This document shows positions 3,028 through 64,000 of a stretch of DNA of 64,000 nt, in pieces. Below the pieces are notes generated by a model, which worked only from the letters and a program-made list of their open reading frames with translations, had not been told where the DNA came from and made no database searches. The stretch spans positions 3,968,001 to 4,032,000 of the forward strand of contig JAWMAR010000009.1 of NCBI GenBank assembly GCA_036785375.1, in the 5' to 3' direction. Position numbers and translations under genes: made by a program. This stretch comes from Leucoraja ocellata (taxonomy: Eukaryota). Every line of letters starts with the position of its first letter. Position 1 is the stretch's first letter.

Positions 3028-4353
3028 TTGTGTGTATGTATATGTAGCCGTCAGCTCGGCCGCTGCATGGGCTATAGTGCATCTGCCCTGCATGGGCTAT
3101 AGTGCCCTGACGACAGGCCCAGGCTCGTCCTTGGTTCCAGCGGCGGCTTCTTTCTCGGTCCCAGTCACGGCCCCATCCCAAGCCCCGGGCACAATCTGGT
3201 TAATTCCTATTTTCTTCCAAACGCTAGGCCACAGCCTTCTCATTTTCACACATTCTACTCACATTTTTCCCGATAAACATCTTCCCGTCGCATTCCCACC
3301 TATATTTCTGAACTTTTTAATCGCTTAAAGTTTTAAAAACAGCCTGAATACTTGCCCATTTCGGGAAAAAAACCCCCAGTGATGTCACAATGGACTTGCA
3401 AGGCAGGACGGGACACTCTGGGAGGGAGGGGCACTCCAGCGCTCATGCAGCAGCTGCCGGCGCCCGACATCTGGTGGCGAGGGAGGTGCCGCGGGCCCTG
3501 GCTGGAGCCGAGCTGGAGTGAGAGCCGAGCCCGGGGCTTGGGATGGGGCTGTGACCGGGACCGAGATAGAAGCCGCCGCTGGAACCAAGGACGAGCCTGG
3601 GCCCATCGTCAGGGCACTATAGCCCATGCAGGGCAGATGCACTATAGCCCATGCAGGGCAGGTGCACTATAGCCCATGCAGCGGCCGAGCTGACGGCTAC
3701 AGTCTACAGCCAGGGCCGGGCCGGGTACAAGAACCAGGCCGAGTTCGAGGCCCTGGCGCTGCTCTACGACCTGGGTAGGTCCTGGGGCAGGGAATGGGAG
3801 TGTAGGGGAGGTGGATGAGGGAAATGAGGAGGAGGGAGATATGGTGGGGAGTGGGGTGGTAGAGGGAGATGGGGGGGGGGGGGGGTGGAGGAGGGAGATG
3901 GGAAGGGGTGGAGGAGGGAGATGCTCCATCCCTATCTACCCTCACTCCCACCCTCTACCCCTCCCTCTCTACCCCCTCATCTCTACCTCTCTCTCTCCCT
4001 CTCCCTCTCCCTCTCTAACCTCCCTTCCCCCAACTCTACCCCCCTCCCACTCTCACTCTACCCCCAAGCCCCCCTCCCTCTACCCTTCCTCTCTTCTTCC
4101 CTCCCTCTCCCTCTCTACCCCCCTTCCACTCCCCCATCCCTCTCTACCCCCCCCTTATCTAGGGATTGAAGAGGGAGGGTGAAGAGGAAGAGGAGGGAGT
4201 GGTGGGGGATGAGAAGAAATGAGCCGTGCCTGCGCAGTTGGGGGCTATGAGTGAGTGGTGCAATATAGGGTTGGGGGAATGGCTTGCGTGGGGGAGCGGG
4301 TGGTGGAATCTTACGTTGGGGAGCAGACCCAACTTGGTCTGCACTTGGTCTAG
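3028..4353 (+). mobile_element. Non-autonomous Helitron-like element with internal inverted repeat
   Basis: 3' end gcagacc-caactt-ggtctgc hairpin (4323-4342), then 7 nt, CTAG (4350-4353) and a flanking T, matching the Helitron 3' signature. Shares blocks with 24217-24799. Inverted repeat 3043-3190 / 3529-3701. Confidence 0.7.
3614..3681 (+). repeat. 25-bp tandem repeat (gcactatagcccatgcagggcag(a/g)t), about 2.7 copies
   Basis: Unit starts at 3614, 3639 and 3664. The inverted arm at 3043-3190 has one unit fewer. Confidence 0.9.
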
Positions 4354-4913: not shown

Positions 4914-6273
4914 TGTAACAAAATATATGTAGGAATCAAGGATTTGGGTCTATGAATGGAGAAAGCACATCTCAAAGATTACAAATAACTCATTATTAAA
5001 GCAAAATAGTAGTAAAATACAGAAATGCTATCAATAAAGTAACAATACAAAATAACAGGTCTCATGGCCCTCTGCGTATTCGAGTCTGTTATCTGCACTG
5101 GCTGGCACCATCACACACCACTGTCCTAGCTCTGTTTCTCCCTCCCCCCGAAGGTGAAGCTCTCCTCTAGCAGCGCGTTAGTCATTTCTACTTTTTTTGA
5201 ATTTTTTAGTATGTCCAAATGTCTCTCGGTGTGTTTTGTGTGGGGGGGTGTTGAGGGGGGGGGTAAGGGGGAAACTGCTTTTGGTCACCTCCTCCACGGA
5301 GAGGTGACTTTTTCCAGTTGCCTCCCTCGCGGCCTAACACCAAGGATTGGTGTGGCCTTTCCCGGAGTCGGGCCCGGAGCTTCAGCAGCGGGCGCAGCGT
5401 GGACTTTCCCCGATCGCTGGCCCGTTCAGCCTGGAGTTGCGGTCTGCAGAGCTTCTAGCCACAGGTGCGGCATCTGGAGCCTGAGATCCCTCGTTGGGGA
5501 CCCCCGGAGAAGAAGAGCTCCAACCCACCGGCCCGCGGCCTACAACACCTTGAAGCCACGGACTGCGGAGCTTTTAGGCGCGGCGTCCGGAGCCTGGGAT
5601 CCCTCGTTGGGGACCCCCGGAGGAGAAGAGCTCCGACCGCCGGCCTGCGGCCTACGTCATCCTGAAGCCACGGTCTTCGGTAGGGAAGCAACGATTTGGG
5701 ACACCTTCCAGCCTGTCATCTGGCCTCCTGAAGCTGCGACTGCGGAGGTTATGGCCTCGACCACGGGGAAAAATGGAGGAGGGCTGACAATACTTTGTGC
5801 CTTCCACCACAGTGAAGAATGCTGTGGCGGATGTTTGTGTTAAATTTTGATTGTGTATTATGTGTTCTTTTTTATTGTACCGCTGCTGGCAAAATTCATT
5901 TCACTGCATTTTATTGTGTATATGATGAATAAATCTGATTGATTGATTGATTTATTGATTGGAAGAATGCACTTCTATAGTAACTTTATCTCTGAGAACA
6001 ATAGATGACTATGTGTCAAAACTAGCTACCCTCCTTGGTGCATAATGGTGTGAGTTATGTGTCCTATCGGACACCGAGCTCGTCCCGGATGTCACGAGGA
6101 CAGCAAAGCTTATCTTAGTGACCTCGCAAATGGCTACAAGAATTACTGGTCCCTTCAAGTTAGCCTAAGTATTCTTTGAAAACATCTACTAAGCAGGGTT
6201 TGAAATGTGGTGCTGCTAATTTAGCTGACAGCTCCGTTTTAGCGGACATAGTCGGTTTATCCCTTATATTACA
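4914..6273. mobile_element. Solo-LTR-like insertion (TGTAA...TTACA) carrying a nested GC-rich element
   Basis: Termini tgtaacaaaa / ttatattaca are inverted. It splits a contiguous Penelope sequence. The flanks gtgtg/atatg are only an imperfect 5-bp TSD. Confidence 0.5.
5150..5960 (+). mobile_element. Unclassified GC/CpG-rich SINE-like retroelement with (GATT)n tail
   Basis: CpG-rich body with an internal duplication (ggagcctg.gatccctcgttggggacccccggag at about 5477 and 5589). Ends ttcactgca...gatgaataaa(tctgat)(tgat)n. The 229-aa ORF has no recognisable motif. Confidence 0.55.
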
Positions 6274-6716
6274 ATATGCTCTTCCTCCAACCTCTCCTAT
6301 TGCATTAGAAGCATCTTGCGTGGCTTCCTCTACGCTGCTGAGACCAAGCACAGACTATGCAACCATATTGCTAAGCATCAGCACTCTGTAAGCCATGGGG
6401 ACCTGGAGCTCCTGGTTTCAAGCCATTTCAATTCCTCTTTCCATTCCCAAACCAACTTGTCTGACCTCAGCCTCCTCCACTGTCAGGATTAGGCCAAATG
6501 CAAACTGGAGCACCAGCATCTCGCATTCTGCTTGGGTAGCCTACAGCCCAATGGCATGAATATTAAAATTTCCTATTTCAAACAGCCCACTTTCTGCCTG
6601 TCCTTTTCTCTCTCTTTCTGATCAACATAGGTCCTTTCACGCATATCCTTCTTTTCCAAAACTTCCTTCCCCGGAACTTGAACACTCAGTTTCTTTCCCT
6701 CTGCTATCTAGATCAT

Positions 6717-9302: not shown

Positions 9303-10663
9303 TAGGGTTGCCAACTGTCCCGTATAAGCCGGGACATCCCATATATCCCAAATATAAGCCGGGACATCCCATATATTGGGCTAAATTGGTTTGTCCCACA
9401 CGGGACCGCTCTTGTCCCGTATTTGACTGCTACTACTTGGGTCGAGGGGATTGTCGGGTCGGAGCGGCACGTCCGGCCCCGCCTCACCCGTCCCGACATA
9501 GTGCAGCCCGTGGAGTGCAGCAGCAGGGCCTCTCCGGCTGGCTGTCCGACCTTCGGACTGTTGCTTGCCGCCGACACCACCATCCCTCCTTCTCATGACC
9601 GATCATATAACCATATAACCATATAACAATTACAGCACGGAAACAGGCCATCTCGACCCTTCTAGTCCGTGCTGAACACATAATCTCCCCTAGTCCCATA
9701 TACCTGCGCTCAGACCATAACCCTCCATTCCCTTTCCATCCATATAACTATCCAATTTATTTTTAAATGATAAAAACGAACCTGCCTCCACCACCTTCAC
9801 TGGAAGCTCATTCCACACAGCTACCACTCTCTGAGTAAAGAAGTTCCCCCTCATGTTACCCCTAAACTTCAGTCCCTTAATTCTCAAGTCATCTCCCCTT
9901 GTTTGAATCTTCCCTACTCTCAGTGGGAAAAGCTTTTCCACATCAACTCTGTCTATCCCTCTCATCATTTTAAAAACCTCTATCAAGTCCCCCCTTAACC
10001 TTCTGCGCTCCAAAGAATAAAGCCCTAACTTGTTCAACCTTTCTCTGTAACTTAGTTGCTGAAACCCAGGCAACATTCTAGTAAATCTCCTCTGTACTCT
10101 CTCTATTTTGTTGACATCCTTCCTATAGTTAGGCGACCAAAACTGTGCACCATACTCCAGAATTGGCCTCACCAATGCCTTGTACAATTTTAACATTACA
10201 TCCCAACTTCTATACTCAATGCTCTGATTTATAAAGGCCAGCACACCAAAAGCTTTCTTTACCACCCTATCTACACGAGAGTCCACTTTCAGGGAACTGT
10301 GCACAGTTATTCCCAGATCCCTCTGTTCACCTACATTCTTCAATTCCCTACCATTTACCATGTACGTCCTATTTTGATTTGTCCTGCCAAGATGTAGCAC
10401 CTCACACTTATCAGCATTAAACTCCATCTGCCATCTTTCAACCCACTCTTCCAACTGGCATCATCAGTTCATGAGTTTGATGCGGTGCCGGGCCAAAACT
10501 CCTCAGCTTCCCCATTGGCTGGGCTTTGTGTGCAGTCCAGCACCCGGGCCAACTCATCATTCACCCAGCCATGCCCGAGTTGGTCAACGAATTGCCATCA
10601 GGAATTTGTCCCTTATTTTGATCTTTCGTCCATTATTTGGGAATGTGAAAGTTGGCAACCCTA
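9303..10663. mobile_element. Non-autonomous hAT (Blackjack-like TIR) with nested CR1
   Basis: TIR tagggttgccaact / agttggcaacccta. Perfect 8-bp TSD tcaccggg (9295-9302, 10664-10671). Subterminal repeats tataagccgggacatcccatatat x2. Confidence 0.9.
9603..10460 (-). mobile_element. CR1-type LINE, 5'-truncated, with open 254-aa ORF2 C-terminus
   Basis: ORF 9690..10454 (WQMEFNADKCEVLHLG...LYKALVRPILEY...LERRRLRGDLIEVFK). (CATATAAC)3 tail at 9605-9628. Confidence 0.95.
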
Positions 10664-15530: not shown

Positions 15531-17081
15531 GTAAAGGAATATAAATTCAGGATCACCAAACCCAGTAGGGGGCACTGTCCCCAAACTTAGAAAATCTCAG
15601 CAGGATTACTTTGGGCAAGGCAAACCTTATTTGAAACTGCAGAGCAATAAGTACTCAGTTCATTAACTACAAATTGTGAGAGGCTGTGCAGTTTTCTTAA
15701 CATACTGTGTATGATTGTGATAATCAAGATAAAAAAGCTACACTGTATGAAATTGGGGATTTGCTCGTCTATCAATGTCATCGCAGGTTAAATGTATCCT
15801 CCAGTTGCAGGTTGCCCAACAATGTTACAGAAACCATCAGAAATGTACTAAGTCTCATAGACTAATGCTATTTAAAGCACCAATTAAGCAAATAGTTCCA
15901 TACTTTTACCAGAATGTCTTCATAATTTATTTTTGTCATACTTTGAATATTCCCTGGCGATTCAACTAAGTAATCACTTAATGCATCGGAAAGAAGTATT
16001 TTGTGTCTGAGTTGCCCAACCATGGCATGGTACTTGGCTTACCTGCCCACACTAGCCAACATGTCCCATCTACACTAGTCCCACCTCCTTGCATTTGGTC
16101 CATATCCCTCTAATCCTGTCCTATCCATGTACCTGTTTATTTGGATGTTCTGGTGAAGGTTCTTTAACATAAAACATTTCTCTCTCCACAAATGCTGCCT
16201 GACCAGCTGAATGTTTCCTGTTTTTTTAATTCTTATTCCCGACATAACTGGGTCTGATCCTTGTTTGGGTCCAGACCCAGAGGATTATAGTTACCTTAAC
16301 TTTCATCTGAAGGGGCGCAGCAAACACTTAGTTGTACTAAAATATCATTAGAACTCTTCAGCCAGCACAATGAATTCAATACTTTGTCCAGTTGACTTTG
16401 TGAACTTCTTCCCATTAGTTTAAGGAATCTGTGCTCTAATTGGGAGAGTTGTTCCAAAAGCTTGGTCAGTCAAAGTTCTGGATATTAACTAGTAAGACAG
16501 ATGTATTTGGAGGTAATGCTACGATCAGGAGAGAATGGGCCTCAAAATCATTAATGTTGTCTCGTAATCACCTTAAGTCTTATGGCAGCAGATCAAAATT
16601 GGACCAGGTAGCCTCTGCTAATTGCGACCTATTAACCTCCCTCAGCTGTTCCATTTGCATCACTCCATATTGAACACCACGTGACAAAAACAAGGACATC
16701 TTCTTCATGATGGGGAGCTTCAAGAGATAGCGGCACCTCTGCTGACCAAGTTGGTCTGATCCAGGAGGTTAAACCAATTGGACTGCACTAACTGCAGAAG
16801 GTAAACCAATTTAAATTCATATTCACCTGATGTATTTGGTAGGAGTCTTCTCTGCCTGGTCTAGGTGGAGATAAAGCCTATTGTATGGCACTATCACCAT
16901 GTGAATTCAGGTGTGTGTTAGCTGTGTCTCTCAATATACATAGTGGGTAGTCAGAGGTAGCAAACCTTTATCTCAGCCTGGCATAACCCACATCTACCAC
17001 AACCATTAGAGCATTCCATTTGGAATGTACAAAAGCAACACCAGACCTACCTACAAGCACGGTGCCAATTTAATGAAGTTA

Positions 17082-17608
17082 AGGGCCTGTCCCACGAGCA
17101 TGCGACAAGCGCGACCAAACCGGAAGCGGGGGCGGCGCGGAGGTCGAGTGATCCCCGTACAGGGCCTGTCCCACCAGCATGCAACTGCATGCTGCGAGCG
17201 CGACCAAAGCGGGGGCCGCGCGAAGGTCGAGTGATCCCGTACTAGTTGATGTGAAGTTCGAGCGAAGTCCGCAGGAAGTTCGCGTGTGACGTATGGCATC
17301 AAGACGCTGCGTACGGCGTCAAGACGCTGCGTACGGCGTCAAGACGCTGCGTACGGCATCGAAACGCTGCGCAGGCCCGTCGAGGCGGTGCGTACGGCCT
17401 CAATGCAGCTGCGGGCTGGCAGGCCGTTGCCACGCGGAATCTTTGGACAGTGTCAGTTTTTCGGAGCCCCGCGCGATGTCGGGACCAGCTCCGCACAACT
17501 CCATACGGCTCCGACGATCGTAGTGGGAGCGGCCCCGCGAGGCCGTATGGCTCAAGCGACCACGTTAGGTCGCACTTGCCGCATGCGACTGCTCGTGGGA
17601 CAGGCCCT
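17082..17608. mobile_element. PIF/Harbinger-type MITE
   Basis: TIR agggcctgtcccacgagca / tgctcgtgggacaggccct. 3-bp TSD TTA (17079-81, 17609-11). Internal 20-bp tandem repeat 17291-17370. Confidence 0.85.
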
Positions 17609-21710: not shown

Positions 21711-22261
21711 AATGTCCTATTTCCTTGGCTCCAACACACCTATTGCAGTATCCACGTTACAGGATATTCTCCATTCCTTAAACTTCATTCCCTTAATTTC
21801 ATTGTGAACCATTATAAAATGGGTATGAAGTACAAGAGCACCACTACTTAATATTTCTTTCCTTGATGCACATACATTTCATAAAAGCAGCAAAAAAATC
21901 AGATATCTGTCCATTTTTATTCATATCCTGGAGCTATCATATATTTGTCAATTTCCAACCACAGAAAAATTGAGCTTAATAAACAGCAAGCTCCAGCATT
22001 TTTCTTAATCAATATAATCTTCAATTGATGAATTATATTTAATTTAGATTCTATGTTCCCTGCACTTTCCTACTGCCAGGAAAATTTACAGTTTCTATTT
22101 ATATCCTTCAATGATAAATAGATGACTTGTGGAGGTTCACAGTGCCATCTGATCAGAAATCTGATAGCTTTACTTTAGTTTTGTTTAGTTTAGAGATACA
22201 GTGCGGAAACAGGCCCCTCGGCCCACCGAGTCCGCAACGACCAGCGATCCCTGCACATTAA

Positions 22262-22695
22262 AGGGCCTGTCCCACTTGGCCGTCATTTGCGCACCATTTA
22301 AGCGACCTCCAAAAATGTGGTTGTCTACATTTATCCTGCGCTACCCACATGGGTATGGAGGAGTGTGGAGTTGCGCACGGTATCGCGCGACGCTCCAGGA
22401 TTTTGTGTTGCACAAAATCCTCGCGCGCCACCTGCGTAACGTATCGCGTATGCACGCTGACGCGTTGGGTACGCATGCTGACACATTGGCGTTGCACGCT
22501 GGCGTCCTGACGTCTCACGTCACCGTGCATAACCACGTGCTGCCGTGTGCCGCAGGGTATTCTAATGACGTCACGTGCACCAGACTGCATGATGACGTGT
22601 GATTTGCGCGCGATGTCGCGCGTAACGACGTGTTGGCCTAATTTACATATGACGCGTAAATGAGGCACAAATGACGGCCAAGTGGGACAGGCCCT
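22262..22695. mobile_element. PIF/Harbinger-type MITE (second subfamily)
   Basis: About 45-bp TIR agggcctgtcccacttggccgtcatttg.... TSD TAA (22259-61, 22696-98). Very CpG-rich. Confidence 0.9.
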
Positions 22696-22754
22696 TAACC
22701 CTATCCCACCTACGCGAGGGACAATTTACATTTAAACCAAGACAATTAACCTAA

Positions 22755-28077: not shown

Positions 28078-28972
28078 CAAGAGCGGAACTCGTTATCAAA
28101 ACATGGAGGGGACCGGGGGACACNNNNNNNNNNNNNNNNNNNNNNNNNNNNNNNNNNNNNNNNNNNNNNNNNNNNNNNNNNNNNNNNNNNNNNNNNNNNN
28201 NNNNNNNNNNNNNNNNNNNNNNNNNNNNNNNNNNNNNNNNNNNNNNNNNNNNNNNNNNNNNNNNNNNNNNNNNNNNNNNNNNNNNNNNNNNNNNAATCCA
28301 GCGCTAAATGCAGCTCAACTCTGCCTGTCTCACCGGGTTAGCTACAGCCCTGTCTGGACTGACGGGACACCAGCGCTGCTTCTCCGCACTGGCCATACTT
28401 CCCACAAGTCCAGGAAGGGCTGTAGGCTTACCTGGCGGGACAGGCAGAGTTGAGCTGGGTTTAGCGCTGCTTCTCTGCGCTGGCTGTGGGCCTGGGAACA
28501 CCGCGCCCGTCTGACTCCCGGCCAAAGGTCCTATAGTGGAGGATCTTTGCTGCCGACCTCTCTGGCCACTGGGGGGGGGGGGGGGGGGGGGGTGGCGGGG
28601 TATGCGGGAGGGGACGGCACATGCCGGGGAGCCGGCCGGGAATGATCCTGGCTGCGGATGAGGCGCAGGTCTGTGCCCCGTCTCCCTCCTCCAATCACCG
28701 CACTGTATCCTCAGTCCCACCCTCCCCACCCACTCCTCCCTCCTCCAATCACCATGCTGAATCATCATGTCCCGCCCCCATTGCCTGCTGACCGACATCT
28801 CTCTTGTCCAATCGGCGCCCTCGATCATCAGTCCCACCCCCACTGTCTCGCGGAAAGCGGAGAATTCACCGGGTTTTTAAATCTGGATTACAAAAACTTG
28901 GGGGGGATGTCCCACCTCGCAAAAAATGGGGGGGCGTGTCCCCTCTGACCTCCCCCGGGTTTTCCGCCCCTG
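28078..28972. mobile_element. Non-autonomous hAT with GC-rich interior, inserted in a Rex1 3' end
   Basis: TIR caagagcggaa / ttccgcccctg. Perfect 8-bp TSD cttgaaag (28070-77, 28973-80). The flanks join into a Rex1-like LPSG...SLKARTTSLRNSFF. Confidence 0.85.
28124..28294. other. assembly gap
   Basis: Run of N. Confidence 1.
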
Positions 28973-41590: not shown

Positions 41591-43189
41591 TTGGTAATTT
41601 CTAAAGTAATAGGTTGAAATATATCGGGAAGCCGACTAGGCGATCCAGATTCTGGTTTCTCATGGAAGATTAGATGGAGGGAGAAAGTTCCAAGCAAAGA
41701 ATGCGCCTAGGTCGGGTGCATCAGTCATTTATTGTTAATAATCATCAACCTAATCTCGCCAAACCCCAGAGCCATATTACAATTACCATTACTTTAATAT
41801 GAAATGTAATAAATGTCATCCCCACTTTCATTTTTATTGGGGGATTTTAAAGAAGCCCGATCTGCAATGATGTCTCTTTGATCAGATGTTGTTTGGTTCG
41901 TGTTATAATGTGTTGTAACGATTCCAGAAGATTCCCGCAGCCAGGCTGAGCAGCAATTTTGTCAGCCTGTGCATCATGAATGTGAATGAATCTCTGACGT
42001 ACACAGTTTCCACGCTCAATTAGGTGTAACTAACCAAGTTCATCATCGGATTAGTTGATTGACGGGAAGTGTCAATTTGATTTGTGTAGATTGTCAATAA
42101 GTCATTAGCATGATAGAAATTTGCTGCCTGCTATTTCTCTCATCTGTGTGATTGTGTGCAATTTCATCCCTTGCTTGCTTTCATGCACAATTAAGTATAT
42201 TTTTCTAAATTACATTTCACAGCAATTAAACTTGCTGTTCAGATCTGAACCACCAGATCTCTGGCATTTAGACATCATAATATCGGGAACACAATATAAT
42301 GCTTCAAACTGTACAGTATTGCTAGACTTTATGCTTCCTTTATTTTATTTAGCTTTTCCAAATTTGTAGTAGTTAGCCGACATCACGGAAATGTTTGCTT
42401 ACTATTATGCACACGTAACTACTTGGGATGAAGCCAAATGCTCTTTTTTCCACCCATGTAAAGAGCCAAGTCTAGGTTAATTCAGTTTCTTAATTGCTTT
42501 ATATGCTTCAGTAATAACAAGCAGGCATAGATTGAAGCTGGGAATAGGAACAGGCTGGAAGTAGATAACCTTTCTTGGTATAATACCATTAGTTTGTCCA
42601 AGTGTTTCGAACTAACTTTAATTTCATTGGAACCAAAGTGTGTCTAATTATCTGTGCTGTGAGAAATGTTACCCAAAAGCCTGTTGCTGGACACTATCAG
42701 GTGCTGACTACACAAGTGGTGGATGCTGCCAATGATCTTCAGTTGTACAGGAGTGCCTGCTGTACAAAATTGTCTGCCAGTGATGAAAGCAAATTTGAGA
42801 CTCTCGATTATTAAACTTAAGGGGATTTACCTGACCAGGCTTGGCAGTCTCATCTCTTGGCCCCATTCTCTTGGCTTGGCCCCATTCTCTTCTCCCTGTA
42901 TATGCTCCCCTTGGGCCAAGTCATTCAAAGGCACGGCATTTCCTTCCATTGCTCTGCAGACAGGACCGGTGCTAGGAATTGCGGGGCCCAATTAGAAAAC
43001 TGATGGCGGGGCCCCTACTCTACAAAAGTAAAAATTTATGTATGTTTATATTTCGTGTAGTATGCTCGTCTTTAACCAAAAAAAACATTAAATGCTTGAT
43101 ATACTAAAATTTTGAAAAACTATATGAAAGTTTTATTTTTTTAATACAAGGTAAGGCAATTACAGACATACTGCTTATACACAGGTCTT

Positions 43190-45854
43190 TTAGAAAAATA
43201 CTTTTCTGGCTTTTTTATTTGCAAAGTCTCTCAAAATATTTTCAAGATCAATGGTTTTAGCAATGTCATTTTCTATAGATATCATTGCCAAATTGTTTAG
43301 TCTCTCTTGTGAAATTGTTGACCGTAAGTATGTTTTAATCAGTTTTAGTTTTGAAAAACTTCTTTCACCTGATGCGACTGTTACAGGCATTGTTAAGTAA
43401 ATCCTCAAAGCAATAAAAATCATTAGGAAATGCTGTAAATCGATTGTTTGCTACCAGGTATTCAAACAGAGCATGAGGCTTAATGATACTGGAGGGAAGA
43501 AAAGTTTTCAGAGCTTCAAGTTCTTCAGCCAATAGATAGCCATCAACGTCTTTAGTTTTTTCAGTAACTACCTCTTCATCAGTGCTCTGTTTTATTGTGG
43601 TGTCTGTTAAAGCTGCTTCAAGGTCCGCTGTGTGCTTCCTTATTTCCGCCTTCTGTATACTGAAAGTTATTTAGAAATCCAAATAATTTTACATGGCTTT
43701 TAAGTTGTTCAAATCTACACTCCATGGACTGAATAGCTTGGTCTAGCACTAAGTTGAAGCACTGAATTCTTTACGCTTCTTTTGGATCATATAAAGGTTG
43801 ATCTTTTGTCTCATATGAAAACATTCTCTTCCTTCTACGTAGTTTTTTTTCTTGAAATTGTCTAAACTCCAATGGTAATTCAACAGATTCAGCCAATTCA
43901 TTTGCACCTACTAGAACATCATTAAAACCTTCCTCTCTATAAATTCTTAGCCATGATAATAGTTTTTCAAATGACTCCATGCCTTCATCAATGTCCTTTG
44001 TTTCACCTTGTAGTTGCTTGCTTACATAGTTAACTTTAAAAAGTATTTCATACCAAAATATCAAAGAAACTAAAAATGTGTAGTCTTTTAGCTGGTTTGC
44101 TAAAGATTCAGCTTCTGCTTTTACCTTGGGCTCATCTGTTATCTCTGATATTTCCACAAGTGCATCATATACTTCTCCAACCTGATAACGAATAGCTTTA
44201 ACACTATCAATCCGACACTCCCACCTTGTATTGCTCAAGGGTTTAACTGATAACCCGGGTACATGTTTTTTAAAAACTGCCCACCTTTTTGTTGATGCTG
44301 AGAACAATATGTAGATCGTTTGCAGAATCCCAAAAAATGTTATGGCATCTGGACAACACTTGGCTACATCTCCGAGTAAAAGGTTATAATTGTGACATGC
44401 ACAGGGTACAAAAAATGCTCTTGAATTATCCTTCAACAGTCGTGCTTGTACTCCAGATGTGTGACCTTTCATGTTGCTACCGTTGTCATAGCCTTGGCCT
44501 CGAATGTCTTGCACTTCTAAATGTAATTCCTTCAGTGTGTTTAATAATGTTTTATATAAAACTTCTCCTGTGCTACTTTCAACTTGTATAAACTTTATGA
44601 AATGTTCATAAACACCCGAAGGAGCCAAGTTACCATCAGACACATACCTGATCGTTAGAGACATTTGTTCTTGGTGACTCATATCAGGTGTGCAGTCTAA
44701 AATAATGGCGTAGTACTTAGCTGCTTTTACACGTTTCAGTATTTCATTCAAAACAGCTGTAGCCATGATGTTTAGTAGTTCATTCTGAGTATCTTTTCCT
44801 AAATAGTGATTATGAATTTTGTGGGTTTTGATTTTTCGCAAATGTGTATCAAGAACAGGGTCAAACTTTACAAGCAGCTCCACAAGACCTAAAGAGTTTC
44901 CATTGTGCACACTCTCATTACCAACATTTTCTTTTGTTCCTCTAAATGCTAAATTTCTCTCAGCAAGAAACTGCACTATTGCTACTAACCTTTTGAATAC
45001 TTGCTGCCAGTGCTTTGCATGTTAATTGACGATTTTTTCACGCTCTTTTGTCAATTGTCTGTCCACTACAAAGTCTTTGGTGTAACTCCCAGAAACTCCA
45101 TGTGGTTTCTAAATGGTTCTTTGAATTTTCATGCTCACATAACCTTGTATGAAGATTACACCAGTTGTTGAATCCACTTGTTGATAATGTACTGGTTGTA
45201 TTCTTACTAAAAAGTTAAAAGTTTGCAATAAAAGCAATACATTCTATCAGCAGACTGAGTGTATATAATCCAAGGTCTTTCAACACTCTCACCATTTGTA
45301 AGTTTCCTCTTACAGTGAAACCTTGAAAAACACAATCCCTTTTCATTTCTTGGAAAGCTGGTCACTGGAATATTAGGAGGACCTTTCATTGTTAAATAAT
45401 CTCTTACATTTTTATTTATATCTGCTGGCCAACTGGTTGGGTCATCATACATGTTAATTACAACTGTACTCATGGATGATCTATCATTGCATGATGTTTG
45501 GTCTTGTTTTTCTCCGGTCATAAGTAAGCTTTCTGCTTTGGCACTGTCTTCTGGTGCATTGAGATCGTCTTCAATTTGATTCACAGCTGCGTCATCCTTT
45601 TCTAATTTGTTATCAATGTCATCATTGTATTTATCAACTGTAATTGGACTCAAAGCTATATCGTCATTTTCTGAATAGTTTTTGTTTTCTTCATCCTCAG
45701 TACATGGGCGCTTCAAAGATGGAGTGAGAAGGAATTTTTTGATAGCACCTCTATGTTTTTCATTTTCAGCTACCTTAGCCTTGACCAATGCTCGTTTCTG
45801 GTTGCCACTTAAATATTGACGCCCTTTGTCTCGATCTCTGCTTGTGCTTGCCAT
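43190..45854 (-). pseudogene. hAT transposase (ZMYM1-like/DUF4371 plus hATC dimerisation type), disrupted
   Basis: ORFs 45207..45905 (YCFYC zinc finger), 43771..44976 (IILDCTPD, GYDNGSNMKG, CACH, TRW) and 43190..43423 (PVTVASGERSFSKLKLIKTYLRS). In-frame TAA at 43771-3 plus frameshifts. ATG at 45854 in acATCATGG context. Confidence 0.92.
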
Positions 45855-45909
45855 GATGTAAGGCCTTTTTATATTATCTTTTTTAGAAAAGACAAACAAT
45901 GACAATAAT

Positions 45910-46455
45910 CTGAAATTTAAAAAAATTGTATTAACAAGAAGGAAGGAAAAAAGAAGAAGAAGGGGAAAGAAGGAAGAAAGTTTGAATGATGAAAGAAGGA
46001 AAGAACTTCAATATTAAAAAAAGTTATAAGAACTATTTTACGTTTTGAGAAATTGCCTTGTAAAGATTTTGTACGCATTTACTGTAATAAATTCTAAAGT
46101 ATTATGCCGAAATACTTGAAAATTGATGTGATTATACAAAATCTTATAAGGAAACCACTGTTATTTGGTCTTCGGAGTTGCACTAGGCTATGTTTACATT
46201 CATTACAAACATTCATTATAAACAGGTGATTCCTAGCCAAACCTACCGCTAGATAAATTTTTGAGTCATCTAACGAAACGAAACGAAACCAAACCAAACC
46301 TAACCTGCGATTGCACTTTTCATAATATAACATTAATTTAGGCCACATGTCACGGATCTACTTACCCGGGCGGAATGATTTGGCGGCGCCGGGCTGAAGG
46401 ATTTGCCGATGGTAATGCGGTGCGTTCCCCAAAAGTAAAAACTACCCTATATAAG
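45910..46455 (-). promoter_or_regulatory. Predicted transposase promoter and 5'-UTR intron
   Basis: Minus strand: TATATA at about 46454-46449, donor G|GTAAGT at 46365, long pyrimidine tract and tttcAG acceptor ending at 45910. AATAAA at 43137-43132 after the stop. Confidence 0.55.
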
Positions 46456-47699
46456 TATCCATGGAACACGAAAAATAATCATTATATTCAGAATCAGCTA
46501 TTCCACCCACAAGCCATTTTTGGAATTAAAATTTCTCATTCTTCATTTCACGTTTTCAGTAGTGATTTATTCCTCTTAGAATACAGAAAAGGCTTCAAAC
46601 GGTAACTCTGACGCCGCTGGCACGGGGCCCCCTTAAGGTGCGGGGCCCAATTTCATAAAATTGGTCAAATAGGCTTAAAACCGGCCCTGTATGCAGATGA
46701 TACACAACTCTATCTCCCCCTGAAGCCCAACAACCGATCAAATCTACTTAACCTTATCCACTGCCTCGAGGATATAAAGTGTTGGATGGCCCAGAACTTC
46801 CTCCAACTAAACGAGAGTAGGTCTGAGGTCATCCTTCTCGGCGCCTCGGACTCAATCAAAACCACAGTAGGCAGCCTTGGAAGCCTTACCCCATTACTCA
46901 AACCTCACGTCAAAAACCGTGGCGTGATATTTGACTCAGCATTGAAATTTGACAAGCAAGTCAATGCCGTGTTAAAGCTAGTTTCTTCCAGCTTCGGACG
47001 ACAGCTAAAATAAAACAATTCCTCCAGTTTGACAACCTTGAAAAAAATCATCCACTCATTTATCTCCTCCTGCCCCGATTACTGCAACTCCCATTACACT
47101 GGCATCAGCCAATCTTCCCTGTCCCGCCTGCAACTTGTCCAAAACGCCGCAGCGAGACTCCTGACGGACACCTGAAAAAGGGACACCATCACCCCGATTC
47201 TGGCCTCTCTCCACTGGCTCCCTGTGCGGTTACGAATAAATTTCAAGATCCTTCTTTTTGTTTACAAAGCCCTTAACGGGCTCACCCCCACCTACATCAA
47301 AAATCTGCTTACCCACCACACCTCCTCCAGGTCCCTCAGATCGGCCGACTTGGAGTTACTGACCATCCTGCAGTCTAGGCATAAGCTCAGGGGCGACCGC
47401 GCCTTTGCGGTTGCAGCTCGTAGACTGGAACAGCATCCCTCTTCCCATCAGAACTGCCCCCTCCATCGACTCTTTGAAGTCAAGACTTAAAATTCATCTT
47501 TACTCTCAAGCCTTTCTTGACGTCGTCTGAGGGAGGGCTATATGTATGTATTTATGTATGTACTTTAATCTATGAACCACTGTTGTATAATGTTAGTACC
47601 TCCACCAATGTAAAGCACTTTGGTCAATGAGAGTTGTTTTTTAAATGTGCTATAGAAATAAGGCATGATTAGAACATCACTGTACCACATCTAAAATCC

Positions 47700-57289: not shown

Positions 57290-57841
57290 GTCCTCTTTTT
57301 TCATTAAATGTGATTTCCCCCGCCTGCTGATTGGATGGAGCCCTCACCAGCATTTGTGTTGCATAGTTCTTTCTCTCTCCCTCCCTCCACATGGAACATG
57401 ATGGAGTTCCACTGGTCCTCGCCTTCACCCCATCAGGCTCTGTATCCAACACATCATTCCCCAATGTGATTCAATGTGATCCCTCACAAGTCACATCTTC
57501 CTGTCCCCAACCCTTTTTGCTTTCAGTAGAGACTGTGCTCTCTGCATTTCCTTGGTTCGCCGCCCAAATCACCCCCTCCCCAGCTACTTTTCCCAACAAC
57601 TATGGGAGGTGTAACACCTGCCTCACCACCTCTCACCTCCACCCATGGATCACTGCAGCTTTTCCAGGCGAGGGATAGATTCACTTGCATCTCTTCTAAC
57701 CCCGTCTTTTGCATTCGGTGCTCCTGATGTGGCCTCCTCTACATCAGCAAAACCTAGTGTGGACGATGCATTAGTTTCACTGAACACCTGCGCTCGGTCC
57801 ATCAAGAACTGCTCCATTTCACAAATGCCAACCATTTTAAC
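57290..57841 (+). mobile_element. Decayed Penelope-like element (GIY-YIG region)
   Basis: VPLVL at about 57405, C..GRCNTC, SSNPVFCIRCS*CGLLYISKT, NHFN. Confidence 0.75.
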
Positions 57842-58190
57842 TTAAGGAGAGGAGGGGGGATGTCTCCCTCCCATTCGTACGGAACATTTGCATTTTTCAG
57901 CTTGAAATTGTGCAATCTGGTGCATACTGTAGCTTGAATGCAATATATATGCTTTAAATTGGATTGGAGCGTTTTTGAAAGGGGGGGAGGCTGTGCGATC
58001 ACAGATCACTGGCCTTGGGGGTACCCGGTGAGAGAGTGGAGCAACCGAGTGGGGAGAGGGTGTGGAAGAAGGGTGTCCCCCCTCCCAGGGTAGGAACTTT
58101 TTGAAATTTGATGTATTAAAATCATGTTTTAGTGCACTGTAGAAGTATGATTTCAATGTTTTTTGTATGAAGTATTTTTATGAGGTAACT
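57842..58190. mobile_element. Probable internal fragment of a DNA transposon (hAT-like subterminal sequence)
   Basis: Two related blocks (ggggg.tgtc.ccctccca...ttttg...tgaaattgtg...gtgca). No TIR found. Confidence 0.4.
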
Positions 58191-58815
58191 TTTTAAGGGG
58201 TAACTTTATCCACACAAAGGGTGATGGGTGTATGGAACAAGCTGCCAGATGAGATAGTTGAGGCAGGGACCATCCCAACATTTAAGAAAAAGTTAGACTG
58301 ATACATGGATAGGACAGGTTTGGAGGTATGGACCAAAAGCAGGTAGCGTATCAGGGACATGTTGGCGGGTGTGGGCAAGTTGTGCCGAAGGGCCTGTTTT
58401 CACACTGTATCACTCTATGACTACATTATACCTCCACCATGCATGAATGCTTCAAAATCAAGTTATTGCGTTTTATTGCCATATACTCAAGCATAGAAAC
58501 ATAGAAAATAGGTACAGGAATAGGCCATCCGCCCTTCGAGGCAGCACTGCCATTCAATATGATCTTGGCTATTCATCTAAAATCAGTACCTCTGTCCTGT
58601 TTTTTCCCCATATCCCTTGATGTCGTTAGCCTCAAGAACTAAATGTAACTCTCTCTTGAAAACATCCAGTGAATTGGCCTGCACTGCCTTCTGTGGCAGA
58701 TAATTCCACAGATTCACAACTCTCTGCGTGAAGAAAGTTTGTTCTCATCTCAGTCCTAACTGCCCCCCACCCCCCCATGGTTCTGAACACCCCCAACATC
58801 GGGAACATTTTTCCA
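58190..58815. mobile_element. Two tail-to-tail CR1/HER1 3' ends
   Basis: Plus copy 58190-58422, minus copy 58493-58815 with catagaaacatagaaa tail. Confidence 0.85.
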
Positions 58816-58932
58816 ATAAGCTATGCAGTTACAATAAGTGAAAATCTAGCAGGCAAGCAGGATGCTTTCACCAACCACCCCCATTTGAAATCCACTATCT
58901 TCCACCGTTTCTACCCAGTGCTTGGTACTTAT

Positions 58933-59087
58933 TTCCAGCAGCCACTGGTTGTCCTCCAGGATGCACCGAGCCGCAGCCTGATCCATGCCGGTCACCTGGG
59001 CGAATTCGGCACAGAGATTCTCACGGCAGCGGTGCAACGCTTCGACGCCTCCGACAGCCCGGGATTCTTGCACTGAGGCTGCTCCAT
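58933..59087 (-). pseudogene. TDP2: TDP2-like first coding exon (N-terminal UBA-like domain), frameshifted
   Basis: RCRENLCAEFAQVTGMDQAAARCILEDNQWLLE matches the TDP2 N-terminal pattern LCxEFAxxxxxDxAxAxCxLxxNxWxxE. The ATG at 59087 is one base out of frame relative to the second copy. Followed by ATAAGT, possibly a mutated GTAAGT donor. Confidence 0.75.
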
Positions 59088-59182
59088 GGCCAGAGTTGCA
59101 GTGAGCGACTCACCAGCCCGGCAAACACTCGCCAGCCCCACTCCCCGTCCGCATCTGTCCCCGCCGCTGCTTCTGCTTCCAA

Positions 59183-59680
59183 CATGCTCTCATCTCTCTC
59201 TCCTCCTCTCTCTCCTCTCTCCTTCCCTTTGCCCCATTTCTCCCACCCACCTCACTCTCCCCCTTGCTCTCTCTCTCTCCCCTCTCTCTTTCTCCTCTCT
59301 CTATCTCCTCTTTCTCTTTGCTCCCCCATCTCTCTCTCTTTCCCCCCTCTCTCCCTCTTCCCCCTCTCTCTTTTACCACCCCTCTCTCTTCCCCCTCTCC
59401 CATTTTCTCTCACCCTCTCCTGCCTCTTCACCCCTTCTCTCTCTATTCCCTCTTTCTTCCCTCTCACCCCTCTCTCCCCCCCTCCCACTTCACTCTCCCC
59501 CTCTCTCTCCTACCTAGCTCTCCCCACTCTCTCTTCCCCCCCTCTCCCTCTTCTCTCTTCATTCACTCCCCCCTGTCTCACCCCTCTCTCCTCTCTCTCT
59601 CTCCCCCCTGTCTCCCTCCCCCCTGTCTCCCTGTCTCCTTCCCCTCTCTCTCTCTCCACCTCCCTTTGAGAGTCTGTCCC
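59183..59680 (+). repeat. CT-rich low-complexity tract
   Basis: About 500 bp almost purely C/T. Confidence 0.95.
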
Positions 59681-59764
59681 TTCGGCACAGAGACTCTCGC
59701 AACAGCGGCGCAACAGTTCCGACGCCTCCGACGGCCCGGGACACTCGCACTGGGGCTGCTCCAT
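59681..59764 (-). pseudogene. TDP2: Second, truncated copy of the TDP2-like exon start
   Basis: MEQPQCECPGPSEASELLRRCCESLCAE, then breaks into the CT tract. Nucleotide homology with copy 1 extends about 100 bp upstream of the ATG (to about 59873). Confidence 0.65.
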
Positions 59765-61069
59765 GGCCAGAGCTGCAGCGAGCGACTCGCCAGCCCCGCA
59801 AACACTCGCAGCACGGCAAACATTCGCCGGTCCCGGCTCCCCGCATCTGTTCCCAACGCTGGTTCTGCTCCCATCCCTCCCTCAGCCCCTGCTCTCCAAC
59901 ACCCGCGGACCATGCAGTTTATCCGAGTTTTGAAATTTTCATTGATCACAGAATTTCTCACCACAAAGCGTGAGAAATTTCTGATCAGCGTGAGAGTTTG
60001 CTTGAGGGCCTGATTGGCAGCCCTGTTCATACTCTCCCAGTCCCTTTACCTTTCTTGCCTTCATCTCTCACCCATCTCACCTGAGTCCCCCACTTTCCCT
60101 ATTATTCCCCCCCCCCCATTTCCACTTAAACCCCTCCCTCTGGCTTTACATTTCACTCCTCTTCTTTCCTTATCTGATGCCCTTTTCATCATTATCTGTT
60201 GATCTTATCACTTTACATTTTTTCGTCAACAAACGTCTCACCAGCAAAAGGTTATATTTATTAAAAAAAGTAAATTGGGTGTGGTATACATCTCCAGCTT
60301 TAGAGAACTCAGTTTGGGGGTGGCCATCTGTGCTGTGTTAAACTGAATGACCCAAAGCAATGAACTGATGCTGAAGTGCTAACTGCAGCAACTTGAGCAG
60401 CACAAATTTGTGCAAATAACTCTGGCTCCATCAAGTCTAGTCCTTATTAAACTTCTGCCATTACCTTTCTTCAGCCGTTCAAATGACAATGGGGTTTTAT
60501 CTGCCTTAGCAGCCAGATTTGCCAACTGCTTGCTTGTGACATTTGCAAATGGATACTGGTCATTAGGAGAGCTCAGTGTCAATAAAGCAATGACATTTAT
60601 ATGCACTAATATTTACACATTTGATGAAGAGATTGAGTCTGTAATGGTCAGAGTAACACGGATAATAAAAAACTATGATTAAGGAAACGTTTAATAGTAC
60701 CCTGGTTATATAAGCTGTCGATAACTGTTTACTTTCAGGAGGCTTATGGGCTTTGAGACAGTGACTACATCAACCTGCATTAAAACACAGGCCGTGAGAT
60801 TTTAACCCATGGGTTGACCAGAAGGTGGAAGTCTCAATCGTATTACAGATGCTTAGAGAGAGAGAGAAAGAGAGTGAGGAATAGATTGACTTTGCCTCAA
60901 TGTCTAGAGTAGATGGAGCCTGACTGTGAGAAGAAGGGATGAGGGTGCATTCAAGGGCCAGAGAGAGCAGAGAGCTCCTTGCACAATTCAAGTGGCTGGT
61001 GGCAATGTGGTTGTGGCTCAGGCTTGGGTGGACACAGGGTACCAAACTGTTTATTCATGTAGGGATCAT

Positions 61070-61340: not shown

Positions 61341-62197
61341 ATATATACACGCCCATGGCTGGAGGTATAATGGGAAAGGTTGACTCAAACATGAAAATAA
61401 GAAACCAATTTCAAACCTAAAAGTATGAAAGATAAAAGAGCAGTTATTCCTAAAAACAGACGGTGGGAGAGTTTGGCAGGTCAGGCAGCATCCCCAGAGG
61501 CTAAAGGGTGGCTCTTTTGCATATCAAAAATAAACTTGATATATAATAAAAAGTAGATTCAAATCAAATACTGTACAAAACTTGTATTACATTAGTGATA
61601 TATTTTGCACTCATTGTTGCTGGTGTTATACAGGTAGTGTTAGTACCACCTTGTTTCCTTAAACTTAATATTAAGTTAAGGCTGATGATTGTTTGGGTCA
61701 AGACTCAGGATCGGGAATGAGAGGGAAGATTGCCAGTATATAGTGGTATGGGGGGGGGGGGGGGGGGGGGAGGGGGAAAGGACAAAGGCTGGTAGGTGAT
61801 GGATGGAACTAGAGGTTGGAGATGATGAGCCATGTTGGGAAGGGAGATGGGAACAGGAAAGGTGAGCAGGAAGAAACCTAGATATACAGGTGAATATGTG
61901 TGGGAGGAGATCACTGGGAGTGTGGGTTTTCTGAAATTTGAAAATTCAGAATTGGGTTGTAAGCTATTCTAGAGGAATATGGAAGGTTGTTCCTCTAATT
62001 TCAATTTGGCCACACCAGAATGGAAAAGGCTGAGGAAGGCAGTGTCGTGTGGGAAGAAGAGCTAAAAGATATGAAACCAGAAGCTCAAGATGGAATCTGA
62101 GCAGTGAGATCCTTAAAATGGCTGTCTGGTTCCTGCAACATATCTATGATAATATACTGTAAGCAATTTATTTGATATTGATTAAAAATCGAATTGA

Positions 62198-62322: not shown

Positions 62323-62930
62323 ATCTTTTTGGGCTGGAGGATGTGCGGAAGTTACGAATGACTTGATATTCAGAGTTCTAATGTGGATGGCACATTGCAA
62401 TTGATGTTTGCTGCAAACATTTCTCCCCACAACTTTGTACAAAACTGATACATGTTGTTCCCCATCACCCAATCCCTACTTTGCATTTGTGTTTTCACCT
62501 GCTTTCTATAGCATTGGAGAATTTGTCTAGCTATCTTACTTTGATTCTGTTTTGTTTAGATTCCTATTCCTAGTGTAGTTTGGATTCATTTAGAGATACT
62601 GCACAGATACGGCCCTTCAGCCCCACCTTGTTCATTCCCACTTGTTCTGTTTATCCCACATTCCATCTTTGAATAAACACCTCTGAGGGACACCATCTTT
62701 CCTGTGTGAAAGATGCTGCAATTTTTACATTGTTCATATATTGTGCTAGTACGTTGTTATTTCTGTGGAAGTCTGCAGGAATCGATAGTGAGGTTTATAC
62801 ATCTGGGAAGGCAAGAGTGGTGCATTATTTGCCTCTGAGCAGAGATGCTGAAGGGAGAGCTTTTACCATAGTTAGTTTTGATCTACTTTTCCTGTTACTT
62901 CAAGTAGTTACTGATGCTCTGTGATTCTAA

Positions 62931-63499
62931 AGGGCCTATCCCACCAGCATGCGACTGCATGCGGCTAGCGCGACCTAACGTGGTCGCTTGAGCCGTACGG
63001 CCTCATGGGGCCATTCCCACTTCGATCGCCAGAGCCGAATGGAGTTGTGCGGGACTGTCCCGCCATCGTGGGGCTCCGAAAAACTGACACTGTCCAAAAA
63101 ATTCCACGCGACAACGGCCTGTCGGCCCGCAGCCGCATTGAGGTTATACGCAGCGCCTCAACGGGGCATACGCAGCGTCTCAACACCGTACGCAGTGTCT
63201 CGACGCCGTACGCAGCGTCTTGATGGTGTATGCCTAGTGCGTGGCGTTGCGCGATGAACATCACCGCCAGGCGTGCCGTTGCGTGATGACGTAACAGCCT
63301 GACGCCATGCGACGTCCAAATTCAGTCGGCCCGCCTCCTGGCCCAGCTGATTGGTGAGTATGATGGCCGGACCAGCCACGCACAACTCCAGACGGCTCCG
63401 CGGTTGGAAGTGGGACCGGCCCCGCGAGGCCGTACGCCTCAAGCCACCACGTTTGATCGCGCTAGACGCATGCAATCGCATGCTGGTGGGACAGGCCCT
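62931..63499. mobile_element. PIF/Harbinger-type MITE with about 130-bp inverted arms
   Basis: TIR agggcct(a/g)tcccaccagcatgcga(c/t)tgcatgcg. TSD TAA (62928-30, 63500-02). Shares one arm and the 20-bp repeat core with 17082-17608 in opposite orientation. Confidence 0.9.
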
Positions 63500-64000
63500 T
63501 AATTACCCAACCTTGGTGGATGTTTCTGACCCTTGTTATGGATGCTCGCTGCATTTGTTATATCTAGGTATCTACACAACTGCAGTTATACAAGAAAATC
63601 CCAAAGTTGCTGTTAGGTTTAGATTTAAGTTGCTGATGGTGAAACCCTACAGTGTTGCAGTCTTCAGTGCAGAGATGTGTGATTTGAAATGAACTTCATT
63701 ACTCGGACAGTAAAAACGATTAAAATTATCATGAGTGGGTGCTTTTGTAATCGCAAACCACGGTATAACTGCTGCTGAACAACTTCTCTTTGTTTCTGTG
63801 AAACCAATTTTATTTGTGTGGTTTATAATGTTCACTTCATTAATGCTGCAGAACCTGCTAAATGTTTGCAAGATTCTTTGGATTTCCATTATCCACATTA
63901 ATTGCTTCTGGGTTTTCTATATATAAAATATTTGGTGTTGCCGCTCTTTACGTGGCAACTCTTTGCATACTGTGTGTGTATGCAACAAAGGCTTTTCACT

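What the first reader, a model, noticed from the sequence alone, without database searches (positions are those of the whole stretch)
58860..60011. Tandem orphan copies of a TDP2-like first exon beside a transposon terminus (possible gene-fragment capture)
Seen: two CpG-rich direct copies (58933-59182 and 59681-59873) separated by a CT tract. They encode MEQPQC...LCAEFAQVTGMDQAAARCILEDNQWLLE. Copy 1 has a 1-bp frameshift and ends at GAA|ATAAGT, and copy 2 is truncated after LCAE. I recognised no further TDP2 exons (EEP phosphodiesterase domain) in the window. Immediately upstream, 59950-60011 has ctcac/gcgtgaga subterminal-type repeats ending ...ttgagggcctg, like a hAT end (CAGG...). Established: TDP2 has an N-terminal UBA-like domain and removes 5'-phosphotyrosyl adducts. 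Inference: a DNA-level capture of the TDP2 5' end (upstream sequence, exon 1 and intron start) by a Pack-type transposon. The matching left TIR and TSD (attggcag) were not found.
Basis: partly seen in the sequence, partly recalled or inferred. Interest (0 to 1): 0.7.

Follow-up and report, generated by a model that had tools for sequence, protein, structure and literature searches.

The report
Dead tdp2 fragments in broken transposon
In skate-like DNA, two decayed copies of the first exon of the DNA-repair gene tdp2 sit next to a DNA-transposon end and were likely carried there inside that now-broken transposon, a known kind of gene-fragment copying that likely makes no working protein.

Summary
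The two copies are real and are tdp2 exon 1. The best structural hit is the TDP2 UBA domain, and little-skate TDP2 is 89% identical. Copy 1 continues into intron 1 (26 of 28 read-through residues match record P0001), so the copying was at DNA level. Copy 1 has frameshifts and a GT>AT donor, copy 2 is truncated, and no later exon is in the window.

A hAT-type tip lies at 60014-60025, and the proposed 'TSD' is inside it. New here: 57844-60025 looks like a 2.18-kb insertion splitting an older retroelement, with about 225 nt of target missing on the left. That would explain the absent left end and TSD.

Best reading: a relic Pack-hAT-like element. It fails formal Pack-TIR membership because only one TIR is present. 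Copy number and parent position could not be tested. One unnamed record (P0122) is a clearly degenerate further copy, but its link to a transposon is unknown. Pack-TIRs are known in animals; I found no cartilaginous-fish case in the papers searched.

The parts
60014..60025 (-). Right terminal inverted repeat, hAT type (CAGGGCTGCCAA); true outer tip at 60025
   Evidence: One of 3 exact matches to the pattern in the window. The other two bound element 9303-10663, which has a perfect 8-bp TSD. Expected exact matches 0.06, but the pattern was chosen after seeing the site; identity to that element's TIR is 10 of 12.
59905..60013 (-). Subterminal region with three CTCA(C/A)GC repeats; inner boundary approximate
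   Evidence: Motifs at minus 60006, 59994, 59974; repeat density in the top 51 of 1332 windows
59681..59874 (-). tdp2 copy 2: upstream leader + exon 1 to LCAE, with an internal 18-nt duplication; ATG at 59764 gives an 84-aa product that runs into the GA tract
59183..59680 (.). CT/GA-rich low-complexity spacer; origin (element or tdp2 upstream) unknown
58933..59182 (-). tdp2 copy 1: leader + whole exon 1 (UBA-like helices); two frameshifts vs P0001; ATG at 59087 gives a 31-aa product without the UBA domain
   Evidence: Pfam UBA_4 E=1.2e-6; PDB 6q00_B E=1.3e-5; L. erinacea TDP2 89%
58815..58932 (-). Start of tdp2 intron 1 with dead donor (AT instead of GT)
   Evidence: 58849-58932 read-through matches P0001 at 26 of 28 and P0122 at 19 of 28 residues. 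Both have Val (a GTN codon) at +1, whereas spliced TDP2 continues RALNSY. 58815-58848 is assigned by position only.
58196..58814 (.). Two LINE 3' fragments (58196-58433 and 58487-58814) that cut off the intron copy; 'CR1-type' is a recalled name
   Evidence: multiple in-window blastn matches, 70-84% identity
57844..58195 (.). Possible remnant of the element's left arm, without a TIR; two related G-rich motifs
   Evidence: The two motifs align to each other (score 44, shuffles max 35). No match elsewhere in the window. Assignment to the hAT is inferred from position and recalled resemblance only.
57400..57843 (+). Left flank: decayed ORF of an older non-LTR retroelement (Penelope-like is a recalled name), broken at 57842
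   Evidence: aligns to in-window copy 6265-6433 (tblastn E=2e-6; nt score 89 vs shuffles max 82.5); Pfam gave no name
60026..60250 (+). Right flank: 3' tail of the same retroelement type, same strand, beginning 3 nt from the TIR
   Evidence: aligns to 7726->7502 (score 142; shuffles max 112.5; CT-tract decoys max 117) and does not extend left of 60028; blastn E=1e-11

Best explanation
Two decayed DNA copies of the tdp2 5' end (leader, exon 1 and, in copy 1, the intron start) lie just inside a hAT-type transposon tip, and were likely captured into a non-autonomous hAT element that likely jumped into an older retroelement here and later lost its left end. SHOWN: tdp2 identity; intron retention; broken frames and donor; no further exons; a hAT-type tip at 60025; retroelement pieces of one type, strand and order on both sides of 57844-60025. 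INFERRED: template switching during repair or replication copied the tdp2 5' end into the element; the fragment was doubled early; a transposase acting in trans inserted the roughly 2-kb element; LINE pieces inserted later; a deletion removed the left TIR, the left TSD and about 225 nt of target; the copies then decayed with CpG-type transitions. It most likely encodes nothing functional.
For: TDP2 identity. Intron read-through shared with P0001 and P0122. No exon 2+. The TIR class is validated by an in-window element with a perfect 8-bp TSD; 8-bp TSDs and subterminal repeats are hAT features (PMC10368747, passages). The retroelement tail starts at 60028 and the ORF piece ends at 57842, with 150+75 nt missing. 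A duplication that ends exactly at a TIR is expected from transposition, not from random segmental duplication (inference). Both copies differ from P0001/P0123 at 7-9 of 43 residues while those two differ at 4 of 43, which fits decay. CpG-context transitions 8 of 34 vs 5 of 94, p=0.006, inflated because the context was defined from either copy. P0122 is a further degenerate exon-1+intron copy. A hAT with transposase remains lies in the same window.
Against: No left TIR or TSD anywhere to the left. The TIR pattern was chosen post hoc; against the in-window TIR it is only 10/12, and 2-mismatch matches are at chance level. Subterminal repeats are weak. 57844-58195 has no tested link to the right end. 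Retroelement pieces are fairly common locally (another copy at 61933-62089), so the two flanks may be separate copies. The ORF spanning the tip found 0 hits among 1.84 billion representatives, so no second locus shows the junction. The exon-1 tree leaves the orphan copies as an unresolved polytomy. Skates have another route to such fragments: an A. radiata TDP2-like paralogue lacking the UBA domain.
Confidence: 0.5

Rival explanations
1. Coincidental neighbours: an unprocessed tdp2 fragment from local or segmental duplication, with an unrelated hAT remnant or a later rearrangement placing a TIR beside it.
For: Only one TIR. hAT-type elements are dense in this window: at least three others with 8-bp TSDs. 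A divergent TDP2-like paralogue exists in A. radiata. No second junction was found.
Against: Retroelement pieces of one type, strand and order flank the whole block, and the tail restarts 3 nt from the TIR. tdp2 similarity starts only about 140 nt inside the tip.
Confidence: 0.26
2. In-situ gap filling: an empty hAT inserted here first, and a break inside it was later repaired from the tdp2 5' end without further transposition (single-copy Pack-TIR).
For: Tan et al. report that most single-copy Pack-TIRs arise this way, 56.9% within 15 kb of the parent (PMC8277862 section 8). Only 4 kb is visible to the right of the element, so the parent could be just outside the window.
Against: No parent within about 58 kb on the left. 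A further degenerate copy exists in an unnamed record (P0122), although its genome and context are unknown.
Confidence: 0.18
3. This is the genuine tdp2 first exon, with an intron longer than 58 kb or a misassembly.
For: The UBA core of copy 1 is nearly intact in protein terms. The window has three N gaps.
Against: Two frameshifts, an AT donor and only a 31-aa product. The intron is cut by LINE pieces after about 118 nt. No exon 2+. The copies are 84% identical, too different for a haplotype duplication.
Confidence: 0.04
4. Retrocopy (processed pseudogene) of tdp2.
For: LINE fragments abut the copy.
Against: After the exon the sequence continues into intron 1, not exon 2.
Confidence: 0.02

Closest known systems
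Animal Pack-TIRs, especially multicopy Pack-hAT-N8_XT of Xenopus tropicalis (Tan et al. 2021, PMC8277862; read: abstract, sections 8, 9, 10, 14, term search of 12 supplements)
   Same: A short host-gene piece with exon and intron sequence inside a TIR element of hAT type; size within the 100-5000 bp range; parent elsewhere
   Different: Only one TIR and no TSD survive; the cargo is doubled and decayed; LINE pieces are nested inside; copy number unknown. The paper's table lists 0 Pack-TIRs for elephant shark, and its supplements have no TDP2/TTRAP hit.
Ssk-FB4 of Drosophila (same paper, sections 9-10)
   Same: Capture included the 5' upstream region and first exons
   Different: Ssk-FB4 carries a near-complete gene that is transcribed and translated; here only exon 1 is present, with broken frames and no catalytic domain
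TDP2 (tyrosyl-DNA phosphodiesterase 2) of skates; L. erinacea P0002, Rhinoraja P0003
   Same: Exon-1 peptide with UBA_4 domain, 89% identical to L. erinacea over the matched part
   Different: No EEP domain exons; the linker reads S-E-x-S-E as in P0001 and P0123, not QVDGEGE as in the annotated Leucoraja and Amblyraja proteins
Unprocessed (duplicated) gene-fragment pseudogene
   Same: Intron retained, disabling mutations, no downstream exons
   Different: Bounded on one side exactly by a transposon tip

Membership tests
Pack-TIR (Tan et al. 2021 criteria) | Both terminal inverted repeats of one element flank the cargo | tested here: not met
   right TIR at 60014-60025; no left TIR+TSD, best 14/20 vs shuffles 13-16
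Pack-TIR (Tan et al. 2021 criteria) | Internal captured sequence of 100-5000 bp from a host locus | tested here: met
   copy 1 + intron about 370 nt, copy 2 194 nt, both tdp2-derived
Pack-TIR (Tan et al. 2021 criteria) | Not a retrocopy (introns kept) | tested here: met
   intron-1 read-through 26 of 28 identical to P0001
Pack-TIR (Tan et al. 2021 criteria) | Parent copy at 90% identity or more in the same genome and not itself flanked by the TE | not testable with these tools
   no skate genome collection; the parent is not in the window
hAT superfamily element | Short TIR of hAT type | tested here: met
   same TIR class as 9303-10663, which has an 8-bp TSD; pattern chosen post hoc; the clade name Blackjack is recalled and was not confirmed
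hAT superfamily element | 8-bp target-site duplication | tested here: not met
   no partner for 60026-60033 beside a TIR; a left-side deletion of about 225 nt is inferred
hAT superfamily element | Subterminal repeats | tested here: inconclusive
   three short repeats; 51 of 1332 windows score as high
hAT superfamily element | Match to a curated hAT consensus or transposase | not testable with these tools
   no Dfam/Repbase library; no transposase inside the block
tdp2 unprocessed gene fragment | Closest relative is TDP2, not another UBA-like family | tested here: met
   PDB TDP2 E=1.3e-5 vs p47 E=0.043; 89% to L. erinacea TDP2; groups with skate TDP2s at support 99/95
tdp2 unprocessed gene fragment | Disabling lesions and missing catalytic exons | tested here: met
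tdp2 unprocessed gene fragment | Not transcribed into a functional product | not testable with these tools
   no RNA data

The most novel reading that the evidence does not exclude
A skate-specific multicopy Pack-hAT family spread the CpG-rich tdp2 leader and first exon around the genome. It would be a cartilaginous-fish Pack-TIR family, with copies that act as portable promoters or as small-RNA sources matching the tdp2 5' end; P0122 and P0123 would be sister copies.
Probability: 0.2. Interest if true: 0.5.

Novelty: new member of a known kind. Interest (0 to 1): 0.25.

Why it matters
Modestly. Gene-fragment capture by TIR transposons is established in animals (370 cases in 100 genomes, PMC8277862 abstract), but that survey lists none for its elephant shark genome. 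A confirmed skate case would extend the phenomenon to batoids and give a datable marker locus. The cargo has no obvious link to the carrier: TDP2 resolves 5'-phosphotyrosyl adducts, which hAT transposases do not form (recalled knowledge), and the catalytic domain was not captured. In practice it is an annotation trap, since it gives a UBA_4 hit that is not a gene. 'New member of a known kind' refers to unprocessed, transposon-associated gene-fragment duplicates; it is not filed as a formal Pack-TIR because one TIR and the TSD are missing.

Tried and rejected
1. Terminus at 60011/60012 with TSD attggcag: rejected.
2. Left TIR + TSD search over 1-59000: chance level.
3. Later TDP2 exons: none by tblastn (best other E=1.8) or by a 10-mer scan.
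4. Host gene for synteny: 550 of 664 candidate ORFs scanned (those under 40 aa left out). No curated-cutoff Pfam hit besides UBA_4; two sub-cutoff hits (Prolamin_like, HCV_capsid) were dismissed as noise. No Rfam hit. Short or domain-free exons could be missed.
5. Second locus with the tip-cargo junction: phmmer of the 155-aa spanning ORF gave 0 hits. This is weak, because spurious ORFs are rarely predicted.
6. Orphan copies as one clade: unresolved. P0001 may be a genuine exon 1 of a related skate; P0123 has one change at a conserved site (E in 97 of 100, Q in 3, K in 0 full-length hits; 20 of 120 lacked the motif).
7. Naming the flanking retroelement: no Pfam hit, so the name stays recalled.
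8. Literature: tdp2+skate 0 papers. Transposon/captured/exon/cartilaginous fish/hAT gave 9 papers, 8 listed, none on this topic by title and abstract start. TIR-string search gave 275 papers; the 40 listed looked unrelated by title.
9. Cluster membership of P0001/P0002 could not be looked up.

Full report
VERDICT. The finding is a real but probably functionless pair of tdp2 first-exon fragments, most likely the cargo of a broken non-autonomous hAT transposon. Capture is likely but unproven.

OBSERVATION. The minus strand carries two direct copies, 58933-59182 and 59681-59874, about 677-692 nt apart and separated by a CT tract. They match at 157 of 187 aligned columns. Copy 1 reads MEQPQC...SEAS, shifts frame at about 59041-59043, and continues ...LCAEFAQVTGMDQAAARCILEDNQWLLE to 58933. 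Copy 2 stops after LCAE. From their ATGs they give 31 aa (copy 1) and 84 aa (copy 2, running into the GA tract); neither contains the UBA domain. The window is skate-like DNA, judged from the protein hits below.

IDENTITY OF THE CARGO. The peptide hits Pfam UBA_4 (E=1.2e-6). In the PDB it matches the TDP2 UBA domain best (6q00_B, E=1.3e-5; p47 E=0.043). The protein search returned 2 of 4 candidates: an unnamed record P0001 and Leucoraja erinacea TDP2 (89%). In an exon-1 tree both copies fall with skate TDP2s (support 99/95). Spliced TDP2 continues WLLE-RALNSY, whereas P0001 and P0122 continue WLLE-V... to a stop. The window follows P0001 at 26 of 28 of these read-through residues. Valine requires a GTN codon, so those records keep the GT donor, while the window has AT. 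Thus 58849-58932 is intron 1, the copy was made from DNA, and its donor is dead. About 118 nt into the intron, LINE fragments take over. No later exon is in the window: best other tblastn hit E=1.8. No host gene was found for synteny among 550 ORFs scanned of 664 candidates, and there is no Rfam hit.

THE TRANSPOSON END. Thirteen bases further out, 60014-60025 reads CAGGGCTGCCAA on the minus strand. The pattern has three exact matches in the window, and the other two bound element 9303-10663, which has a perfect 8-bp TSD. 8-bp TSDs and short subterminal repeats are hAT features (PMC10368747, passages). Caveats: I chose the pattern after seeing the site, with recalled degeneracy; identity to the in-window TIR is 10 of 12; and the subterminal repeats are only in the top 51 of 1332 windows. 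The clade name Blackjack is recalled and unconfirmed. No left TIR with the expected TSD exists in 1-59000 (best 14 of 20; shuffles 13-16).

INDEPENDENT BOUNDARY EVIDENCE. The DNA right of the tip aligns to the 3' tail of a retroelement copy at 7726->7502 (score 142; shuffles max 112.5; three CT-tract decoys max 117). The alignment starts at 60028 even when 125 extra bases are offered. The DNA left of 57843 is the decayed ORF of the same retroelement type, aligning to 6265-6433 (E=2e-6) and ending at 57842. The two reference copies share the ORF end, which links them. Strand and order agree, and about 225 nt of target are missing (150 of ORF, 75 of tail). The simplest reading is a 2.18-kb insertion at 57844-60025 whose left tip, left TSD and adjacent target were later deleted. 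Against this, another copy of the retroelement lies at 61933-62089, so the flanks could be separate copies; the left alignment is only modestly above its shuffles (89 vs max 82.5); and 57844-58195 could not be tied to the right end. 'Penelope-like' is a recalled name; Pfam gave none.

OTHER COPIES AND DECAY. A profile search returned 3 of 570 candidates: P0001, P0122 and P0123. Over 43 shared residues, each window copy differs from P0001 or P0123 at 7-9 positions and from the other copy at 10, while P0001 and P0123 differ at 4. So the window copies are the decayed ones, and P0001 may be a genuine exon. Transitions between the copies are enriched in CpG context (8 of 34 vs 5 of 94, p=0.006; inflated by how context was defined). 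P0122 changes residues that are invariant in 11 of 11 named chondrichthyan TDP2s (R>H, E>K) and two more constrained sites, so at least one further degenerate exon-1+intron copy exists somewhere. Its genome and flanks are unknown. The tree does not resolve the orphans as a clade, and the ORF spanning the tip found 0 relatives. Amblyraja radiata has a TDP2-like paralogue without the UBA domain, which shows tdp2 also duplicates by other routes in skates.

MECHANISM. Shown: cargo identity, intron retention, disabling lesions, one hAT-type tip, flanking retroelement pieces. Inferred: capture by template switching, early doubling of the cargo, transposition in trans to this site, later LINE insertions, left-end deletion and neutral decay (0.50). 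Rivals: coincidental neighbours (0.26); in-situ gap filling of a resident hAT, the commonest route for single-copy Pack-TIRs in PMC8277862 section 8 (0.18); genuine gene (0.04); retrocopy (0.02). The first and third readings both amount to cargo inside a hAT, together about 0.68.

COMPARISON AND NOVELTY. It works like an animal Pack-TIR, closest to the frog Pack-hAT (PMC8277862; abstract, sections 8, 9, 10, 14 and a term search of 12 supplements). It is not filed as a member, because the two-TIR criterion and the TSD were tested and not met. It does meet the tests for an unprocessed tdp2 gene fragment. I found no report of it: tdp2+skate 0 papers; no TDP2 or TTRAP in the Pack-TIR supplements, and 0 Pack-TIRs listed for elephant shark; nothing on topic among the 8 listed. 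The library lacks most subscription papers, and bioRxiv supplements were not seen. Interest 0.25; 0.5 if it proves to be a multicopy, transcribed family (probability about 0.2).

Noticed in passing
window 42961-46689: hAT transposon with TIRs, an 8-bp TSD (7 of 8 match) and a frameshifted transposase (DUF4371 E=5e-12; Dimer_Tnp_hAT E=7e-12), inserted in what looks like a LINE reverse-transcriptase remnant (RVT_1 E=0.008, below cutoff)
   Followed up: partly
window 9303-10663: Non-autonomous hAT-type element with a perfect 8-bp TSD and a LINE 3' fragment nested inside; used as the TIR reference
   Followed up: yes
window 28078-28972: GC-rich element flanked by a perfect 8-bp direct repeat, with a hAT-like right tip, a degenerate left tip and an N gap inside
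   Followed up: partly
window 62930-63500; related pieces near 17080-17600 and 22200-22700: CpG-rich MITE-like elements with long inverted arms (133 nt, 83%) and 20-nt internal repeats; family not determined
   Followed up: no
window 3063-3656: 128-nt inverted repeat, 96% complementary, next to an N gap, with 25-nt tandem units; could be a young element or an assembly feature
   Followed up: no
protein P0014 (Amblyraja radiata TDP2-like): Annotated paralogue keeps the catalytic domain (81% identity to L. erinacea TDP2) but lacks the UBA domain
   Followed up: partly
whole window: No Pfam-detectable host exon and no Rfam family in 64 kb: a gene desert or a very large intron
   Followed up: yes
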